The position numbers and the translations under genes are program-made. A stretch of DNA of 64,000 nucleotides, taken from the IMG/VR virus record IMGVR_UViG_3300045988_128894, positions 24,731 to 88,730 of that record. The stretch is one strand, 5' to 3'. The stretch is from a virus. The notes under the pieces are model-generated. The model was not told where the DNA came from, ran no database searches, and saw only the letters and a list, made by a program, of their open reading frames with translations. Below, piece by piece: positions 3,673 to 27,805 of the stretch (positions are counted from its first letter, which is position 1; each line of letters begins with the position of its first letter).

Positions 3673-4104
3673 ATGACCTTTGAACAGTACAAGAAGAATC
3701 GTCCATTCTTTTCTGATCCGTACTATGTGAATATTGTAGAAAGAGTAGAAGAACAGTTCTTCTCTATTCCGGCAGAAAAAATTCACGATACAGAGAACGA
3801 ACTTCCTCATAAACTTAATTTTGGAACTCTCGGTGAATCAAAATATCTTTCTGTTCCTTGTATTGTATTTATGAGTGATGGCACAGAGTATGGAACGTAT
3901 GTTGATATCGCTGGTTATTATTGTTATCAAGATAATCAGTGGTATTTTGATCGCATTGATGTTAGTAGAACGCTGTCTCTGCATGAAGTGTATAGAAGAA
4001 AACCGACAGTTTTGAAGTGGGTTCCGTTGAAGATTGTCTGTGACGAAGACGAAAGAGATGATAGATGTTTTCAATACAATGGAGAACATTATAAAATCAT
4101 ATAA
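3673..4104 (+). CDS. hypothetical protein
   Basis: AAGGAGG RBS; 143 aa. Confidence 0.55.
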   Translation: MTFEQYKKNRPFFSDPYYVNIVERVEEQFFSIPAEKIHDTENELPHKLNFGTLGESKYLSVPCIVFMSDGTEYGTYVDIAGYYCYQDNQWYFDRIDVSRTLSLHEVYRRKPTVLKWVPLKIVCDEDERDDRCFQYNGEHYKII

Positions 4105-24042: not shown

Positions 24043-24699
24043 ATGAAAAAAATCGAAACGGTGTTCAATCGTGACATCGAAGGTACTAAAAAGTTGATTA
24101 TCGGTGATTTCCGCAGTGAGACCATCGAGTTCCTACAAAATAACGAGTGGGAATTTACTGAGAAAGTGGATGGCACGAATGTGCGTGTTTGCTGGGACGG
24201 TCACAAAGTCAGCTTTGCTGGACGAACTGAACGTGCCGAACTTCCTAAGAATTTGGTGGATGCACTAAATAAAATTTTCGGTACTTCTGAAGCAGAGGAA
24301 TTGTTTGAACAGACTTACGGTGATAAAGAAGTAATCCTCTTTGGAGAGGGTTATGGTGGCAAAATTCAAGGATGCGGTCATGGATACCGACCTGACGAGT
24401 GGTTCATCTTGTTCGATGTCCTGATTGGTGATAACTACCAGAGTAGAGAGTGGGTCAAAAAGACTGCTCAGATGTTTGGCATCCAAGCGGTTCCTGTTTT
24501 ATTCACAGGGACGATTCGAGACGGTATCAAGTTTGTATGTCGGCATCCGAAGTCTACGATTTCGATTGGTGGCATTTATATGGAAGGTCTAGTTGGTCGG
24601 CCAAAAGTTGAATTGAAAGACCGTAGAGGTAATCGAGTAATTGTCAAAATCAAGTGGAATGATTTCAAGGATATCGCTGATACGCTTGGTAATGAGTAA
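24043..24699 (+). CDS. small nucleotidyltransferase-fold polynucleotide ligase (RNA-ligase-like, KxDG)
   Basis: motif I EKVDGTN, motif IV-like GEGYGGK, motif V IVKIKW; 218 aa minimal ligase; sits immediately 5' of tRNA array. Confidence 0.5.
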   Translation: MKKIETVFNRDIEGTKKLIIGDFRSETIEFLQNNEWEFTEKVDGTNVRVCWDGHKVSFAGRTERAELPKNLVDALNKIFGTSEAEELFEQTYGDKEVILFGEGYGGKIQGCGHGYRPDEWFILFDVLIGDNYQSREWVKKTAQMFGIQAVPVLFTGTIRDGIKFVCRHPKSTISIGGIYMEGLVGRPKVELKDRRGNRVIVKIKWNDFKDIADTLGNE

Positions 24700-24768: not shown

Positions 24769-24856
24769 GCCGCAGTGATGGAGTGACATACATTTCCCGC
24801 TTAAACCGGGACGCCTGAAACACGGATCGTGGGTTTGAATCCCACCTGCGGCACCA
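24769..24856 (+). tRNA. tRNA-Leu (anticodon TAA), type II with long variable arm, CCA encoded
   Basis: acceptor GCCGCAG/CTGCGGC, anticodon stem TCCCG/CGGGA with loop CTTAAAC, T-arm GTGGG-TTTGAAT-CCCAC, A73+CCA; D-stem only 3 bp. Confidence 0.65.
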
Positions 24857-24859
24857 TAT

Positions 24860-24933
24860 CCAGAATGTAGTGTAATGGCAGCACGCTGCGTTTGGGACGC
24901 AGAAGAGCGATTCGAATTCGACATTTTGGACCA
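24860..24933 (+). tRNA. tRNA-like, anticodon TGG (Pro) but degenerate T-stem; possibly pseudo-tRNA
   Basis: acceptor CCAGAAT/ATTTTGG (one G-U), perfect anticodon arm CTGCG-TTTGGGA-CGCAG, canonical TTCGAAT T-loop but T-stem only 3 bp, CCA encoded. Confidence 0.4.
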
Positions 24934-25028
24934 GTGGAGTATTCCACTTGCTTTTCATGAATACCTTCCTATTATTCTTGGCTCTCCAAAAAACGGAGCA
25001 GTAGGACGCAGCAAGCCAAGTTACATAA

Positions 25029-25118
25029 TGAGGGTTCGCCAAGTGGTAAATGGCATCTGGCTTTGACCCAGACAGCGTGCTTTATAGCCGATCGTCGGTT
25101 CGATCCCGACACCCTCAA
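25029..25118 (+). tRNA. type II tRNA (long variable arm, A73) with anticodon TTG
   Basis: 7/7 acceptor TGAGGGT/ACCCTCA, D-arm GCCA-agtggtaaa-TGGC, anticodon arm TCTGG-CTTTGAC-CCAGA, ~21-nt variable arm, T-arm GTCGG-TTCGATC-CCGAC; no CCA. Confidence 0.6.
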
Positions 25119-25123
25119 TTTAT

Positions 25124-25212
25124 GGACACGTGATGGAATCGCAGACATGAAAGATTTAGGCTCTTTTGCCGTTAACAGCGGTGTGCCCGTTCAAATCGGG
25201 TCGTGTCCACCA
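25124..25212 (+). tRNA. tRNA-Leu (anticodon TAG), type II, CCA encoded
   Basis: acceptor GGACACG/CGTGTCC, anticodon arm AAAGA-TTTAGGC-TCTTT, variable arm with GCCG/CGGT stem, T-arm GCCCG-TTCAAAT-CGGGT, A73+CCA. Confidence 0.65.
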
Positions 25213-25316
25213 TTATCAACTTATGGTTGCGTACCGTTTTGTTGATCTCCTTTGACCACTATTATTCCCAGCTCGCCAGTGATGGTGCAGTAGTGCTTTG
25301 CAAGCTGGGTTTTCAT

Positions 25317-25391
25317 GCAGCGGTCGTACAACGGCTAGTACATCAGCCTTCCAAGCTGAGGATGAGGTTTCGACTACCTTTCGCTGCTCCA
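25317..25391 (+). tRNA. tRNA-Gly (anticodon TCC)
   Basis: acceptor GCAGCGG/TCGCTGC, D-arm GTAC-aacggcta-GTAC, anticodon arm TCAGC-CTTCCAA-GCTGA, T-arm GAGGT-TTCGACT-ACCTT, CCA encoded. Confidence 0.7.
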
Positions 25392-25579
25392 GTCTTGTAT
25401 GGGTAGGATCTTTAGCGGTCAGATCCGGCCGCGCCTGTTCAAGATACCACCCCGAAAGGGGCGAGATATAGGAAATGTGCATCGCTGTTATTCCTTCCTC
25501 GTCTATATGGTATAGATGCAATAGTGTTTTATAAGGAAGGTTCCCAGTTGAATAGTTGCAGCTGTTTGACTGGTAATAT

Positions 25580-25655
25580 GGAATAGTAGCTCAGTTGGTT
25601 AGAGCCGACAACTTATAATTGTCAGACGCGAGTTCAAATCTCGACTATTCCACCA
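25580..25655 (+). tRNA. tRNA-Ile (anticodon TAT)
   Basis: acceptor GGAATAG/CTATTCC, D-arm GCTC-agttggtta-GAGC, anticodon arm GACAA-CTTATAA-TTGTC, T-loop TTCAAAT, CCA encoded. Confidence 0.7.
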
Positions 25656-25779: not shown

Positions 25780-25806
25780 GAAAAGGAGGTGGTTTGGTGA
25801 AACATT

Positions 25807-27261
25807 ATGGAAGTATTTGCGAGATTGATGGTTCTAAGATTGAACCTGTCTCGTGTATCACTGGTGGTTCACCTTGTTAGCCAAGATCTTTCTATTGCCG
25901 GTAAGCGGGCAGGTTTGGCTGGAGAACGGTCTGGTCTATTTATGGAAATGATTCGTGTGATAAAAGAAATGAGGGATACCACCAATGGAGAATATCCAAA
26001 ATTTGCAATCTGGGAAAATGTTAGAGGAGCACTCTCCTCAAACAACGGAGAAGACTTCCGATGTGTCTTGGAAGAATTTGCACACATCGTCGAAGCAGAC
26101 GCTACAATTCCTAAACCTTCGGAAAAAGGTGGAAAATGGTCTAAATCCGGCGCAATTTCCGGTAATGGATGGTCTTTGGCATGGAGACTCTTCGATGCTC
26201 AATACTGGGGAGTGCCCCAACGTCGTCAAAGAATCGCGCTTGTCATGGATTTTGGAGGACAACGTGCCGCAAAGATATTATTTGAGCGCACGGGCGTGCC
26301 AGGGAATTCTGACGAGAGCATCCCGACGTGGCAAGGTGCTGCCAGAATTGCTGAAAAATGCATTGTTGGAAATGATCGAGTGGTGGGAGAAAAAAGCTTT
26401 TGTATCGTCGGAAACATGATTGACAGAGAAACCAACATGAATGGGACTGGTGTAAAAGAAGATACTGCTTTCACTATAAACACTATTGACCGTAATGCTG
26501 TTGCCTACACTTTAAAGATTCGTTCAGGATGCGAAGGTGGTGGCAAAGGCGCACTGGTACAAATCGAGAAGAGCGCAACGCTTTCTACATTGCAAGATCA
26601 AACGTTAATTTGCTTGGCAGACAACACCTCTTTACATAATTCAAAACAAAAGATTTCGCCGGTGGTGTTTGAGAGTCACAGTCAGGATGCTCGATACACT
26701 CAACAGGGCGACACAAGTCCGGCTTGTACGGCTCAATGGGGGACTGGTGGCAATAATATGCCGCTTGTTGCTGAAAAGAAAACCTTTGCAATGCAACGCA
26801 TTGGTGAATACAAGGAAAGTGAACAAGCTAGTACGATGAAATCTCGTGACTACAAGGATGCTACTGACTTGATTGCAGAGAAGGAAACGAAGAATCTGCA
26901 ATGGATTGTTCGTCGCCTGACTCCTGTCGAGTGTGAACGACTTCAAGGGTTCCCTGATGGATGGACTGATATTGGCGAGTGGGTTGATGAGAATGGTAAA
27001 AAGCACAAACCAGCTGATTCTCCTCGTTACAAGGCGCTCGGCAATTCGATTGCATTGCCTCAGTGGTATTGGATTTTCCAGAAAATGAAGCCGTATATCG
27101 GTGAGAATCCTACGCTTGGCAGTCTTTTTGATGGAATCGGTGGCTTTCCGCTTGTCTTTGAAAGTACGTATGGTGATGGTACTGCTATCTGGGGATCTGA
27201 AATTGAACCGTTCTGCGTTGCAGTAACTAAGAAGCATTTTCCAGAAAAGCAAGGAGGATAA
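25807..27261 (+). CDS. C5-cytosine DNA methyltransferase with permuted/scrambled motif order and disrupted PCQ motif (probably non-functional as annotated)
   Basis: ORF contains motif IV tail QDLSIAGKRAG, motif VI FAIWENV, motif VIII QYWGVPQRRQR, motif IX RLTPVECERLQGFPDGW, motif X LGNSIALP and then motif I LFDGIGGFPL at its C-terminus; GGSPC of motif IV lies upstream (25863-25877) in another frame and is followed by TAG. Confidence 0.55.
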   Translation: MEVFARLMVLRLNLSRVSLVVHLVSQDLSIAGKRAGLAGERSGLFMEMIRVIKEMRDTTNGEYPKFAIWENVRGALSSNNGEDFRCVLEEFAHIVEADATIPKPSEKGGKWSKSGAISGNGWSLAWRLFDAQYWGVPQRRQRIALVMDFGGQRAAKILFERTGVPGNSDESIPTWQGAARIAEKCIVGNDRVVGEKSFCIVGNMIDRETNMNGTGVKEDTAFTINTIDRNAVAYTLKIRSGCEGGGKGALVQIEKSATLSTLQDQTLICLADNTSLHNSKQKISPVVFESHSQDARYTQQGDTSPACTAQWGTGGNNMPLVAEKKTFAMQRIGEYKESEQASTMKSRDYKDATDLIAEKETKNLQWIVRRLTPVECERLQGFPDGWTDIGEWVDENGKKHKPADSPRYKALGNSIALPQWYWIFQKMKPYIGENPTLGSLFDGIGGFPLVFESTYGDGTAIWGSEIEPFCVAVTKKHFPEKQGG

Positions 27262-27262
27262 T

Positions 27263-27805
27263 TTGCCAGAAAATAAAGGATATTTAACAGCTGACCGATC
27301 TGCGGTAGGCGATGAGCGATACACACCGGTTTACGCGGTTATTCCATTGCTTGAATTTGCCCCCCCGTCGAGTAAAACAGTGATTTGGTGTCCGTTTGAT
27401 AAAGAGTGGTCTGCCTTTGTGCAGGTGTTCAGAAATGCTGGATATAAAGTAGAATATAGCCACATTGATAACGGACAAGATTTCTTTACATACGAACCGG
27501 AATATTGGGATATTATGATTTCAAACCCTCCTTTTAGTAGGAAGGATGAAGTATTGCGTAGAGCCTATGAGCTTAAAAAGCCGTTTGCTCTACTACTTCC
27601 TGCAAATAGTATTCAGGGTAAGACACGATTTGACATCTTCAAAAATGATGTACAGATGCTGTGTTTTGATTCTCGAATCGGATTTATGGACCCTGAACAT
27701 ACTGACAGCCCTGTTGAGGGAGTTTCGTTTGGAAGTGCGTACTTCTGTAGAAATTTTCTTCCCAGTAAGTTAGAGTTGCGGAAACTCGATAAGAAAATCT
27801 CATAA
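27263..27805 (+). CDS. putative DNA N6-adenine methyltransferase (phage Dam-like, NPPF motif), TTG start
   Basis: YTPVYAVIPLLEF...WCPFDKE...DIMISNPPFS; AAGGAGG RBS 5 nt before TTG. Confidence 0.5.
   Translation: MPENKGYLTADRSAVGDERYTPVYAVIPLLEFAPPSSKTVIWCPFDKEWSAFVQVFRNAGYKVEYSHIDNGQDFFTYEPEYWDIMISNPPFSRKDEVLRRAYELKKPFALLLPANSIQGKTRFDIFKNDVQMLCFDSRIGFMDPEHTDSPVEGVSFGSAYFCRNFLPSKLELRKLDKKIS

What the first reader, a model, noticed from the sequence alone, without database searches (positions are those of the whole stretch)
25783..27261. C5-cytosine methyltransferase with scrambled motif order and a TAG plus 1-nt interruption inside the catalytic PCQ motif
In the 25807-27261 ORF the conserved C5-MTase motifs appear in the order IV(tail)-VI-VIII-TRD-IX-X and then motif I (LFDGIGGFPL) and II at the C-terminus. 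The GGSPC half of motif IV is encoded just upstream (25863-25877) in the -1 frame, preceded by a strong RBS and a GTG at 25797. It is followed directly by TAG. Deleting 4 nt (TTAG/TAGC at 25877-25881) would restore a perfect GGSPCQDLSIAG. The gene is therefore both cyclically permuted (break between motifs II and III, exactly at the ORF boundaries) and frame-disrupted at the catalytic Cys-Gln junction. Possible explanations are tandem duplication followed by flanking deletions, capture from a circular intermediate opened inside the gene, a new permutation class needing recoding, or a deliberately inactivated MTase fragment.
Basis: partly seen in the sequence, partly recalled or inferred. Interest (0 to 1): 0.7.

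Follow-up and report, generated by a model that had tools for sequence, protein, structure and literature searches.

The report
Permuted phage cytosine methylase, interrupted allele
This phage gene belongs to a large natural family of DNA cytosine methylases whose parts are in rotated order, and this copy carries a common variant with four extra bases inside the catalytic site, which most likely switches the enzyme off.

Summary
Both observations are real. Alignment to M.HhaI shows an exact circular permutation. The gene starts at HhaI residue 58 (motif III) and runs IV-VI-VIII-TRD-IX-X. It ends with motifs I-II (HhaI 16-58).

The permutation is not a local accident. All 86 related loci checked and 107 of the best 150 50%-identity clusters share it, as do cultured Faecalibacterium phages and many Clostridia prophages. 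Intact members exist, so the topology needs no recoding. It matches the engineered "type B" permutants (cp62M.MpeI), a topology a 2018 REBASE survey did not find in nature.

The TAG plus one base (25878-25881) is not an assembly error. It is fixed in one of two 5' alleles: 31 of 86 loci, 26 haplotypes, and never found intact. The other allele is uninterrupted but starts at CTG. A nearly identical gene body occurs behind both alleles.

No slippery codon, landing codon or RNA structure supports recoding, and a +1 product (PC-S-QDLS) has no precedent in 133 relatives. My best reading is a standing OFF allele (about 0.5). A programmed +1 frameshift (about 0.2) is kept alive by synonymous-biased variation upstream of the stop.

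In passing: a +1-frame ORF inside the gene (26237-26400) is under purifying selection.

The parts
25783..25789 (+). Shine-Dalgarno AAGGAGG, 7 nt upstream of the GTG start
   Evidence: Read directly. Invariant in all 26 A-type haplotypes while the spacer varies. The same SD serves the CTG start of B-type alleles.
25797..25880 (+). N-terminal fragment ORF: GTG, 26 codons (motif III G-S-I and motif IV ...CITGGSPC with the catalytic Cys at 25875-25877), then TAG
   Evidence: Aligns to M.HhaI 58-81. Among A-type haplotypes, 9 of 14 variable sites are third positions of this frame. pN/pS is 0.11.
25878..25881 (+). The 4 extra bases (TAGC; equivalently TTAG at 25877-25880) between the Cys and Gln codons of PCQ
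   Evidence: Compared with intact alleles (...CCA TGC CAA GAT...). Fixed in all A-type 5' modules. One variant, TAGT, occurs in L105 and L123. This is also the site where a relative carries a LAGLIDADG intein (GGSP|C...HN|CQDLS).
25857..25904 (+). 48-nt core ATCACTGGTGGTTCACCTTGTTAGCCAAGAYCTTTCTATTGCCGGTAA. It shows only two polymorphic positions (the Y at 25887 and the TAGC/TAGT variant) and no difference between the two A-type haplogroups, which differ by about 12% on both flanks.
25882..27261 (+). Body of the methyltransferase in the +1 frame: rest of motif IV (QDLSIAGKR 25882-25908), V (25933-25971), VI ENV (26002-26040), VII-VIII (26167-26244), TRD (about 26398-26900), IX (26902-26967), X (27025-27078), linker (27079-27123), stop TAA 27259-27261
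27124..27246 (+). Motif I (LFDGIGGFPL 27124-27153) and motif II (IWGSEIEPFCVAVTKKHFPE 27187-27246) at the C-terminus: the permuted segment
   Evidence: Aligns to M.HhaI 16-58. The canonical relative P0179 reads ...KRHFPD-MVHYGDVTQIHG... across the junction.
25807..27261 (+). The ORF as gene callers report it (484 aa). Its first 25 residues are an out-of-frame reading of the N-terminal fragment.
   Evidence: Identical calls appear in many metagenomes (P0001-P0043). The out-of-frame residues are not conserved between haplogroups.
25985..26419 (+). Overlapping ORF in the frame +1 to the methyltransferase frame (144 codons). The part from about 26237 to 26400 (...NVPQRYYLSARACQGILTRASRRGKVLPELLKNALLEMIEWW) is under purifying selection.
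   Evidence: Between 26237 and 26370, pN/pS is 0.09-0.23 in this frame against 1.0-3.4 in the methyltransferase frame. The peptide is conserved in all family sequences examined.

Best explanation
The gene is a member of a large natural family of phage and prophage C5-cytosine DNA methyltransferases. Their polypeptide is circularly permuted between motifs II and III, giving the order III-IV-V-VI-VII-VIII-TRD-IX-X-linker-I-II. The architecture is ancestral to the family and is compatible with activity.

In the roughly 110-140 kb human-gut phages to which the window belongs, the first 200 bp or so of the gene exist as two alleles:
- B-type is uninterrupted and starts at a CTG, 8 nt after the SD.
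- A-type, present in the window, starts at GTG and carries 4 extra bases (TAGC) between the catalytic Cys codon and the Gln codon.

With ordinary decoding, A-type yields a 27-residue peptide ending in the catalytic Cys, plus at best a Cys-less body. I therefore read the window's copy as a standing OFF (null) allele of the methyltransferase. It is kept at about one third frequency and is moved between otherwise near-identical gene bodies by recombination. This parallels the homopolymer ON/OFF switches seen in related phages.

Shown: the permutation, its family-wide distribution, the two alleles, the fixation of the insert in one of them, and the cassette exchange. Inferred: that A-type makes no active enzyme, and that the polymorphism is maintained by alternating selection for and against methylation.
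For: Permutation:
- phmmer against M.HhaI places the break at residue 58.
- All 86 related loci end just after ...KKHFPE and start at KHYGD/S.
- 107 of the best 150 50%-identity clusters are permuted and 27 are canonical. The canonical P0179 reads through the junction.
- Colinear matches occur in Faecalibacterium phages Toutatis and Lelie and in prophages of many Clostridia isolates.
- Engineered permutants with the same break (cp62M.MpeI, cp58M.SssI) were about as active as wild type (PMC5944983).

Interruption as an OFF allele:
- The insert is present in 31 of 86 loci sampled without bias and in all A-type modules.
- 54 of 55 B-type loci have an open frame.
- The window and L003 are 98-100% identical over 25999-26899 but only 60-78% identical in the 5' module. 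The intact gene body therefore says nothing about A-type function.
- tRNA-Cys on UGU cannot re-pair on GUU, and no UGY landing codon lies in register.
- The downstream RNA fold is no better than shuffles (z = 0.10).
- Spacing PCQ-x-LS is invariant in 133 family representatives, so a PC-S-QDLS product would be unprecedented.
- The window shows no TAG reassignment, and A and B phages carry similar, largely shared tRNA sets, with no tRNA type found only in A.
- Other ways of switching off occur in the family: G9 / G10 / G14 tracts in Toutatis, L001 and Lelie; C6 and G9 tracts bracketing motifs VII-VIII in L165; nonsense variants in L022, L024 and L085; and a PYQ variant, P0151.
Against: - The N-terminal fragment looks selected in its own frame within the A-type clade. 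Nine synonymous variable sites stand against five non-synonymous events, and pN/pS is 0.11.
- No intact A-type source allele was found in IMG/VR or in 241 million metagenome records.
- The SD and GTG are invariant.
- The 48 nt around the insert show no difference between two haplogroups that differ by about 12% on both flanks. A recoding signal would predict this, although a short gene-conversion tract would as well.
- A-type alleles are not decaying faster than B-type. Private mutations are N:S 72:40 against 50:29, p = 0.88.
- An A-type sub-lineage has a clean second split of the gene, with a conserved SD and TTG and a variable spacer. That suggests the pieces are still expressed.
- TAG is otherwise almost unused as a stop in the window (1 of 50 ORFs).
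Confidence: 0.5

Rival explanations
1. Programmed +1 ribosomal frameshift (or 4-nt bypass) at UGU-UAG-C. Ribosomes start at the well-placed GTG and pause at the rarely used UAG in a weak context (UAG-C). A fraction shift to read AGC-CAA..., giving a low level of full-length enzyme (GGSPC-S-QDLSIAG). Attenuation would be the purpose, as with the CTG start of the other allele.
For: - The insert is fixed in all A-type modules across 26 haplotypes and two deep haplogroups.
- Variation in the upstream fragment is biased to synonymous sites.
- A 48-nt core, roughly ribosome-sized, shows no difference between the two haplogroups.
- The SD and GTG are invariant.
- The Cys codon is always the wobble-read UGU in A-type, against UGC in 52 of 55 B-type loci.
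- The only variant of the insert, TAGT, keeps Ser in the +1 reading.
- TAG is otherwise avoided as a stop.
- Both alleles look designed for weak expression (CTG start in B-type).
Against: - There is no P-site re-pairing (UGU to GUU) and no take-off / landing pair for an exact 4-nt hop.
- No stimulatory RNA structure was found.
- The SD-like GGUGGU lies 6 nt from the P-site codon, not the 3 nt seen in prfB, and the corresponding codons in the uninterrupted allele (GGAGGC) are even more SD-like.
- The product would carry an extra residue in a catalytic loop whose spacing never varies in 133 relatives.
- The core identity is equally explained by a short conversion tract. Mosaic tracts of tens of bases are visible among the haplotypes.
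Confidence: 0.2
2. A Cys-less pseudo-enzyme. Translation from ATG 25807 (weak SD-like GGTGA 6 nt upstream) gives the 484-aa protein that gene callers report. It has VSQ in place of PCQ and acts as a non-catalytic, sequence-specific DNA binder, for example by shielding sites or regulating.
For: - The +1 frame is open from ATG 25807 to the junction in all A-type haplotypes examined, and the ATG is created by the A-type codon choice TAT (31 of 31 loci, against TAC in 52 of 55 B-type loci).
- Isoforms lacking catalytic motifs exist in the family and one alternative frame is under selection.
Against: - The 25 N-terminal residues of this reading differ at 8 positions between haplogroups, whereas the other frame differs at one. 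Selection is therefore not on this frame.
- The main SD is 17 nt from this ATG.
- The SAM-contacting motif III and strand beta-4 would be replaced by unrelated sequence.
Confidence: 0.1
3. A split enzyme. The 27-residue peptide (motif III, beta-4 and the catalytic Cys) and a separately initiated body assemble non-covalently, by termination at TAG and re-initiation at GTG 25864 or ATG 25807. This would be analogous to the split M.AquI.
For: - Permutation puts beta-4 at the extreme N-terminus, where it could be detached.
- The family tolerates splits. The L062-type TRD split has TAA-GGAGGG-N6-TTG with a variable spacer, and Toutatis gp14 and gp15 are separate ORFs.
- Fragments of cp62M.MpeI complement each other (PMC5944983).
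- It would explain selection on the upstream frame.
Against: - There is no SD or start codon adjacent to the junction for the second piece.
- The body would carry a 5-25 residue out-of-frame extension occupying the same structural position.
- A catalytic Cys as a free C-terminal residue has no precedent.
Confidence: 0.06
4. An artefact, or a rearrangement private to this genome: an assembly or sequencing error for the 4 nt, and a local tandem duplication with deletions, or a circular-intermediate capture, for the permutation.
For: None found. This is only the prior that most frameshifts in metagenomic contigs are errors.
Against: The same 4 nt occur in about 70 contigs from many samples and assemblers. 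The same gene ends occur in all relatives, including isolate genomes.
Confidence: 0.01

Closest known systems
Engineered type B circular permutants of C5-MTases (cp62M.MpeI, cp58M.SssI; also selected cpM.HaeIII variants), PMC5944983
   Same: The new N-terminus lies between motifs II and III, and the old termini are joined by a short linker after motif X. These constructs were the most active of all permutants, about wild-type level.
   Different: Those are laboratory constructs. Here the topology is natural, old and widespread (107 of the best 150 clusters). The 2018 REBASE survey in that paper found only type H permutants in nature.
Natural circularly permuted C5-MTases of the M.BssHII / M.Alw26I / M2.Eco31I / M.Esp3I / M2.BsaI type (type H)
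   Same: C5-MTases with circularly permuted motif order, thought to arise by tandem duplication and truncation at both ends.
   Different: Their break is in the variable region (order IX-X-I...VIII). Here it is between II and III (order III...X-I-II). Plant DRM2 (VI-X then I-V) differs again.
Canonical phage and prophage Dcm-like C5-MTases of Clostridia (e.g. P0179, P0200)
   Same: They are about 50% identical to the permuted family over motifs III-X, with the same motif sequences (LFDGIGGFPL, GSPCQDLSVAGKRAGL, WENV, GVPQRRKRI, RRLTPxECERLQGFPDGWT, RYKALGNS).
   Different: Motifs I-II are at the N-terminus. The junction ...KRHFPD-MVHYGD... is continuous, with an internal Met where the permuted proteins start.
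Phase-variable DNA methyltransferases (homopolymer or SSR frameshift switches)
   Same: The methylase is toggled ON or OFF by a frameshift. Close relatives use exactly this (G9 / G10 / G14 in Toutatis, L001 and Lelie; C6 and G9 in L165).
   Different: The window's interruption is not in a repeat and cannot revert by slippage. Switching would need recombination with the other allele.
prfB-type +1 frameshifting and T4 gene 60 bypassing
   Same: A stop codon immediately follows the last in-frame codon, the site is conserved, and coding potential exists on both sides.
   Different: There is no re-pairing P-site codon, no SD at 3-nt spacing, no matched landing codon and no significant structure.
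Split C5-MTase M.AquI
   Same: A C5-MTase encoded as more than one ORF. The L062-type relatives have a comparable split inside the variable region, with its own SD and start.
   Different: The PC|Q break has no initiation signal for the second part and cuts inside the catalytic motif.

Membership tests
C5-cytosine DNA methyltransferase (Pfam PF00145) | Profile match above the curated cut-off | tested here: met
   103.3 bits against a cut-off of 22, E = 2e-29, in 4 stretches.
C5-cytosine DNA methyltransferase (Pfam PF00145) | Motif I FxGxG and motif II (SAM binding) | tested here: met
   LFDGIGGFPL at 27124-27153 and IWGSEIEPF...HFPE at 27187-27246 align to M.HhaI 16-58.
C5-cytosine DNA methyltransferase (Pfam PF00145) | Contiguous motif IV (G-x-P-C-Q) with the catalytic Cys in the same polypeptide as motifs VI and VIII | tested here: not met
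   In the window, GGSPC is followed by TAG plus one base (25878-25881), and QDLSIAG is in the +1 frame. The feature is met in B-type and other relatives.
C5-cytosine DNA methyltransferase (Pfam PF00145) | Motifs VI (ENV), VIII (QxRxR), IX and X | tested here: met
   WENV at 26002-26040, VPQRRQRIALV at 26212-26244, RRLTPVECERLQGFP at 26902-26967 and GNSIALP at 27025-27078. These align to M.HhaI 119, 146-169 and 271-308.
C5-cytosine DNA methyltransferase (Pfam PF00145) | Canonical motif order I to X | tested here: not met
   The order is III-X then I-II.
C5-cytosine DNA methyltransferase (Pfam PF00145) | Methyl transfer to C5 of cytosine | not testable with these tools
   This needs expression and a methylation assay. 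Neither this copy nor any family member has been assayed, to my knowledge.
Natural permuted C5-MTases, type H (M.BssHII group) | N-terminus in the variable region, with IX-X preceding I-VIII | tested here: not met
   The N-terminus is at M.HhaI residue 58, and IX-X precede only I-II.
Type B permutation topology (as defined for cp62M.MpeI / cp58M.SssI) | New N-terminus between motifs II and III, with the old C- and N-termini joined after motif X | tested here: met
   Query 441-485 = HhaI 16-58 and query 4-89 = HhaI 58-136. A 15-residue linker, QKMKPYIGENPTLGS, joins X to I. The topology is defined in PMC5944983.
Programmed +1 frameshift (prfB type) | P-site codon whose tRNA can re-pair in the +1 frame | tested here: not met
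   UGU to GUU: no Watson-Crick pair at positions 1 and 2 (sequence).
Programmed +1 frameshift (prfB type) | Slowly decoded or stop codon in the A site | tested here: met
   UAG followed by C. TAG ends only 1 of 50 ORFs of 120 aa or more in the window.
Programmed +1 frameshift (prfB type) | Internal SD about 3 nt upstream of the shift codon | tested here: not met
   GGUGGU ends 6 nt before UGU. The corresponding codons of the uninterrupted allele (GGAGGC) are even more SD-like.
Programmed +1 frameshift (prfB type) | Site conserved, and both ORF parts under purifying selection in lineages that carry it | tested here: inconclusive
   The site is fixed and the core is invariant. pN/pS is 0.11 upstream and 0.23 downstream. 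However, the gene body is exchanged with intact alleles, and the upstream divergence may predate the insert.
Translational bypassing (T4 gene 60 type) | Matched take-off and landing codons in register with the downstream frame | tested here: not met
   The only downstream UGC (22 nt on) leads to CGG TAA. A CCU to CCA hop stays in the dead frame (sequence).
Phase-variable methyltransferase | Simple-sequence repeat at the frameshift site | tested here: not met
   There is no repeat at 25870-25885. The feature is met at another site in relatives (G9 / G10 / G14; C6 and G9).
Stop-codon-recoded phage (TAG read as Gln) | In-frame TAG in many genes, and a suppressor tRNA | tested here: not met
   Treating TAG as sense extends ORFs less than treating TGA or TAA as sense. 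None of the 6 tRNAs has a CUA anticodon. The late-gene half of the genome lies outside the window. Readthrough would not restore the frame in any case.

The most novel reading that the evidence does not exclude
The A-type allele is decoded by a new kind of +1 event at UGU-UAG-C that needs no slippery codon: out-of-frame A-site binding at a rarely used stop, or an exact 4-nt skip. A phage would then meter a potentially toxic methyltransferase by recoding inside the catalytic PCQ motif. On this reading the gene would use three reading frames: the N-terminal fragment, the body, and the selected +1-frame segment at 26237-26400.
Probability: 0.15. Interest if true: 0.8.

Novelty: new variant of a known kind. 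Interest (0 to 1): 0.55.

Why it matters
1. [quoted passage not shown] This family is large, with 107 of the best 150 50%-identity clusters permuted, and it spans prophages of many Clostridia and cultured Faecalibacterium phages. It shows that nature also uses the break between motifs II and III. Protein engineers found that same break to be the best tolerated. Annotation pipelines and REBASE-type motif scans that expect I before IV will mis-handle these genes.

2. One third of an abundant group of gut phages carries a defined 4-nt lesion in the catalytic motif, next to an intact allele on the same gene body. That offers a natural near-isogenic pair (differing mainly in the 5' ~200 bp) for asking what phage-encoded cytosine methylation costs and buys in the gut. 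It is also a clean test case for non-canonical +1 recoding.

3. The selected overlapping frame, bracketed by homopolymer tracts in relatives, suggests these genes encode more than one product.

Tried and rejected
- **Assembly error.** Rejected: the same 4 nt occur in many independent assemblies.
- **TAG reassignment or suppression.** Rejected for the window. It would not fix the frame anyway.
- **An allele-specific frameshift-suppressor tRNA in the adjacent tRNA cluster.** Not found. A and B phages carry similar, largely shared tRNA sets, with no tRNA type found only in A, and all anticodon loops read as 7 nt.
- **A stimulatory RNA structure.** None: z = 0.10 downstream and -1.64 across the start. 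Rfam finds only the tRNAs.
- **An intact A-type allele as source of the synonymous variation.** Searched with a flank-only pattern in IMG/VR and in the metagenome collection. None was found. The four 23-nt matches are unrelated canonical MTases.
- **An imprecise intein deletion as the origin of the 4 nt.** The one intein allele read (L163: CCT|TGC TTT CCG ... CAC AAT|TGC CAA) does not supply TTAG or TAGC, so this is unsupported. The coincidence of site remains.
- **Faster decay of A-type genes.** Not seen.
- **Structure prediction of an intact permuted member.** P0105 with an 11-sequence alignment failed (mean pLDDT 29), so no fold search was run.
- **Megablast of the region against INPHARED phages.** It gave only 100-nt matches, so no annotated close relative of this phage exists there.
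- **Literature on a natural type B permutation or on the Toutatis methyltransferase.** Nothing was found.
Full report
**1. What is in the sequence**

A strong Shine-Dalgarno sequence (AAGGAGG, 25783-25789) lies 7 nt before a GTG at 25797. That frame reads V-KHYGSICEIDGSKIEPVSCITGGSPC and stops at TAG (25878-25880). One more base follows (C, 25881). The +1 frame then reads QDLSIAGKRAGLAGERSGLF... without interruption to TAA at 27259-27261. The 484-aa ORF that gene callers report (ATG 25807) starts with 25 residues that are an out-of-frame reading of the same DNA. Deleting 4 nt restores GGSPCQDLSIAG.

**2. Motif order**

Pfam PF00145 matches at 103 bits in four stretches. A phmmer search of the repaired protein against PDB sequences aligns it to M.HhaI as follows:
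- residues 4-89 to HhaI 58-136 (motifs III-VI);
- residues 125-148 to HhaI 146-169 (motif VIII);
- residues 370-419 to HhaI 271-308 (motifs IX and X);
- residues 441-485 to HhaI 16-58 (motifs I and II).

The protein therefore begins where HhaI residue 58 is and ends where HhaI residue 58 is. This is an exact circular permutation with the break between motifs II and III.

**3. The permutation is a family trait, not a local event**

- A protein search returned hundreds of near relatives with the same C-terminus.
- All 86 related loci where both gene ends could be read (from IMG/VR, ENA, Logan and NCBI, plus the window itself) start at KHYGD/S... and end just after ...KKHFPE.
- An exhaustive search with an intact member (P0105) found 3,460 clusters at E below 1e-30. 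Of the best 150 cluster representatives, 107 have PC at about residue 23 and motif I about 28 residues after motif X, and 27 are canonical.
- The canonical relative P0179 reads ...KRHFPD-MVHYGDVTQIHG... across the point where the permuted proteins end and begin. This fits an origin by tandem duplication and truncation in the distant past.
- Colinear matches occur in Faecalibacterium phages FP_Toutatis and Lelie.
- They also occur in prophages of many Clostridia isolates, including Hespellia stercorisuis DSM 15480, Megasphaera massiliensis NP3 and Ructibacterium gallinarum DSM 107454.
- Intact permuted genes are the rule (L001, L060, L081 and all B-type loci), so the topology needs no recoding.

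**4. What is known about this topology**

Slaska-Kiss et al. [quoted passage not shown] They also report that their engineered permutants with the N-terminus between motifs II and III (cp62M.MpeI, cp58M.SssI) were by far the most active, comparable to wild type. The present family is the natural counterpart of that engineered topology. I found no paper describing it. The sequences are in public databases, annotated simply as DNA methyltransferases.

**5. The interruption belongs to one of two 5' alleles**

Aligning the first 170 nt or so of the gene in all loci shows two forms.

A-type (31 of 86 loci, including the window):
- GTG start;
- peptide KHYG(S/N/D)ICEIDGSKIEPVSCITGGSPC;
- then always CCT TGT TAG C CAA GA.

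B-type (55 of 86 loci):
- the same SD;
- a CTG at the position of the GTG (52 of 55 loci; ATG in three divergent members);
- peptide KHYGDITQLHGWQIEPVSCITGGSPCQDLSQAG, uninterrupted.

In B-type the only ATG lies 1 nt after GGAGG and is in another frame. CTG is conserved while its neighbours vary, so CTG initiation is the consistent reading.

Searches with DNA patterns from the A-type flank only returned 24 metagenome and 38 IMG/VR stretches. Every one carries the insert. One variant reads TAGT (L105, L123). No intact A-type allele was found.

**6. Evidence that bears on function**

For continued function:
- Within the A-type clade the 26 codons upstream of the TAG vary at 14 sites. Nine are third positions of the fragment's own frame and are synonymous. 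pN/pS is 0.11, against 0.125 for the same codons in B-type.
- Two haplogroups (window-type and L062-type) differ at 8 synonymous and one non-synonymous position in the first 20 codons, and by about 12% downstream. They are identical over the 48 nt around the insert.
- The SD and GTG are invariant.
- A-type genes are not decaying faster than B-type genes. Private mutations are N:S 72:40 with 2 stops, against 50:29 with 1 stop, p = 0.88.
- L062-type alleles have a second, clean split in the variable region: CAT TAA GGAGGG-N6-TTG, with four spacer variants and an invariant SD and start.

Against:
- tRNA-Cys cannot re-pair from UGU to GUU.
- No UGY or CCN landing codon lies in register for a hop.
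- Folding shows nothing beyond shuffled controls.
- The SD-like GGUGGU is 6 nt from the shift codon, and the corresponding codons of the uninterrupted allele (GGAGGC) are even more SD-like.
- The tRNA clusters of A and B phages are similar and largely shared, with no tRNA type found only in A.
- TAG is not reassigned in the window.
- A simple +1 shift would give GGSPC-S-QDLSIAG. In 133 family representatives the spacing PCQ-x-LS-x-AG never varies.
- The window and L003 are 98-100% identical from 25999 to 26899 but only 60-78% identical in the 5' module. The 5' modules are swapped as cassettes. The intact gene body is therefore no evidence that A-type is expressed. Short mosaic tracts among A-type haplotypes also make a conversion tract a sufficient explanation for the identical core.

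**7. Family context: frequent switching off**

- Toutatis, Lelie and a metagenomic relative carry G9, G14 and G10 at the same place. Only G10 is in frame.
- L165 has C6 and G9 tracts bracketing motifs VII-VIII, which sit in another frame.
- Point nonsense variants occur in both alleles: L022, L024 and L085.
- One representative has PYQ in place of PCQ.
- A relative on a 132.8-kb contig carries a LAGLIDADG intein inserted GGSP|C...HN|CQDLS. That is within 1-3 nt of the window's 4-nt insert.
- Another relative has an intein at ENV, and others have an in-frame HNH/HTH insertion in motif IX.
- The catalytic-site DNA is thus a target of mobile elements. This offers an origin for the lesion, but the one intein allele read does not supply the inserted bases.

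**8. Verdict on mechanism**

I commit to the following, with confidence of about 0.5. The window's copy is a standing null allele of a functional, naturally permuted methyltransferase. It is maintained beside an attenuated (CTG-start) intact allele and exchanged by recombination. This gives the phage population both methylating and non-methylating genomes.

The main rival, at about 0.2, is a programmed +1 event at UGU-UAG-C. It would explain the selection signal in the upstream fragment and the invariant core. It lacks every known mechanistic hallmark and predicts an unprecedented catalytic loop. A Cys-less binder (0.1) and a split enzyme (0.06) are less likely. An artefact is excluded.

**9. 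Side finding: a selected overlapping frame**

The ORF at 25985-26419 lies in the frame +1 to the methyltransferase frame and ends ...NVPQRYYLSARACQGILTRASRRGKVLPELLKNALLEMIEWW.... Sliding Nei-Gojobori estimates on 72 unique family sequences give the following:
- Between about 26237 and 26370, the methyltransferase frame has pN/pS of 1.0-3.4, with pS falling to 0.055.
- In the same stretch, the +1 frame has pN/pS of 0.09-0.23, with normal pS.
- Upstream of 26237 the methyltransferase frame is the selected one.

The peptide is conserved in every family sequence examined, and in most B-type alleles it extends further. In the protein collection, 264 short called proteins match it. In Toutatis the G9 tract fuses motifs III-VI to this frame (annotated gp14). 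P0154 and P0124 carry the peptide in frame with both flanks and lack motif VIII. No internal ATG is conserved across the family. How the frame is expressed in the window's phage is therefore open.

**10. Context of the window**

The window is the replication and nucleotide-metabolism region of a large phage. It encodes DNA polymerase, helicases, RecJ, a ligase and NrdD. Six tRNA genes (24769-25655) and an RNA ligase (24043-24699) lie immediately upstream of the methyltransferase. Related contigs are 110-140 kb and come from human gut samples. The host is unknown, and only distant relatives of the gene occur in sequenced genomes.

Noticed in passing
window 25985-26419 (selected part about 26237-26400): An ORF in the frame +1 to the methyltransferase frame is under purifying selection: pN/pS 0.09-0.23, against 1.0-3.4 in the methyltransferase frame over the same bases. 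It encodes ...NVPQRYYLSARACQGILTRASRRGKVLPELLKNALLEMIEWW. The peptide is conserved in all relatives examined and extends further in most B-type alleles. No internal ATG is conserved, so the mode of expression is unknown.
   Followed up: partly
L137 1821-1829 (Toutatis, NC_047915), L138 1821-1834 (Lelie), L001 661-670; L165 gene positions 322 and 604: Homopolymer tracts sit inside the permuted methyltransferase of related phages. G9, G14 and G10 occur at the same place, and only G10 is in frame. In Toutatis, G9 fuses motifs III-VI to the selected alternative frame (annotated gp14). L165 has C6 and G9 tracts bracketing motifs VII-VIII, which lie in another frame. This looks like phase variation or transcriptional slippage.
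   Followed up: partly
L062 about 3710-3740 (also L059, L063, L064, L075 and 15 more loci): A sub-lineage of the interrupted allele has a second, clean split of the gene in the variable region: CAT TAA GGAGGG-N6-TTG. The SD and TTG are invariant and there are four spacer variants. This is a natural three-piece arrangement.
   Followed up: partly
L002, L003 and 50 other loci, about 50 nt upstream of the called gene start: The uninterrupted allele has no ATG, GTG or TTG start. A conserved CTG lies 8 nt after GGAGG at the position of the window's GTG. Gene callers therefore truncate these proteins (e.g. P0040 starts MSQAGK, P0120 starts MSCITGG).
   Followed up: partly
L163 1501-4773 (P0264); P0089; L073, L074, L076 and P0108: Mobile insertions occur in conserved motifs of relatives. 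A roughly 395-aa LAGLIDADG intein sits at GGSP|CQDLS, the same site as the window's 4-nt insert. Another intein sits at WENV|. An in-frame HNH plus HTH insertion of about 175 aa lies between LQGFP and GWTDIG.
   Followed up: partly
window 25029-25118: A 90-nt tRNA with anticodon UUG (Gln codons) has an 18-20-nt extra arm, like a type II tRNA. Relatives (L008, L003) have an ordinary 71-nt tRNA-Gln at this place, and L062 shares the long form. The last tRNA of the cluster is Ile(UAU) here but CAU in relatives.
   Followed up: partly
whole window: TAG is almost never used as a stop. Among 50 ORFs of 120 aa or more the counts are TAA 29, TGA 20 and TAG 1, and the single TAG case is a doubtful minus-strand ORF at 15770-16267. 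Nothing in this half of the genome indicates that TAG is read as sense. The late-gene half lies outside the window.
   Followed up: partly
window 27263-27805: A small (180 aa) N6-adenine methyltransferase-like gene carries an NPPF motif and has weak EcoRI_methylase and Dam hits. It is an indel: it is absent from L003, where the flanks join directly. Its SD overlaps the last codons of the C5-MTase, which explains the C-terminal variants ...HFPEKQGG and ...HFPED.
   Followed up: partly
window 24043-24699; L003 1-842: An RNA ligase (PF09414) lies directly upstream of the tRNA cluster. In relatives there is also a 737-aa protein with kinase (AAA_33), phosphatase (Metallophos) and T4 Rnl1-type ligase domains. 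Together these look like an RNA (tRNA) repair module next to the phage tRNAs.
   Followed up: no
L028 and most B-type loci, gene codons about 195-235: In most uninterrupted alleles the methyltransferase frame reads a low-complexity stretch (SRNSVTGGAESEGTRRSGREGIGRVLESDHRETS...) where the window has a TRD element (FCIVGNMIDRETNMNGTGVKEDTAFTINTIDRNAV). The alternative frame there reads a protein-like sequence (NPGTLSQVVQKVKEQEGLEEKELDEYW...). These alleles may have given up part of the TRD to the overlapping frame.
   Followed up: no
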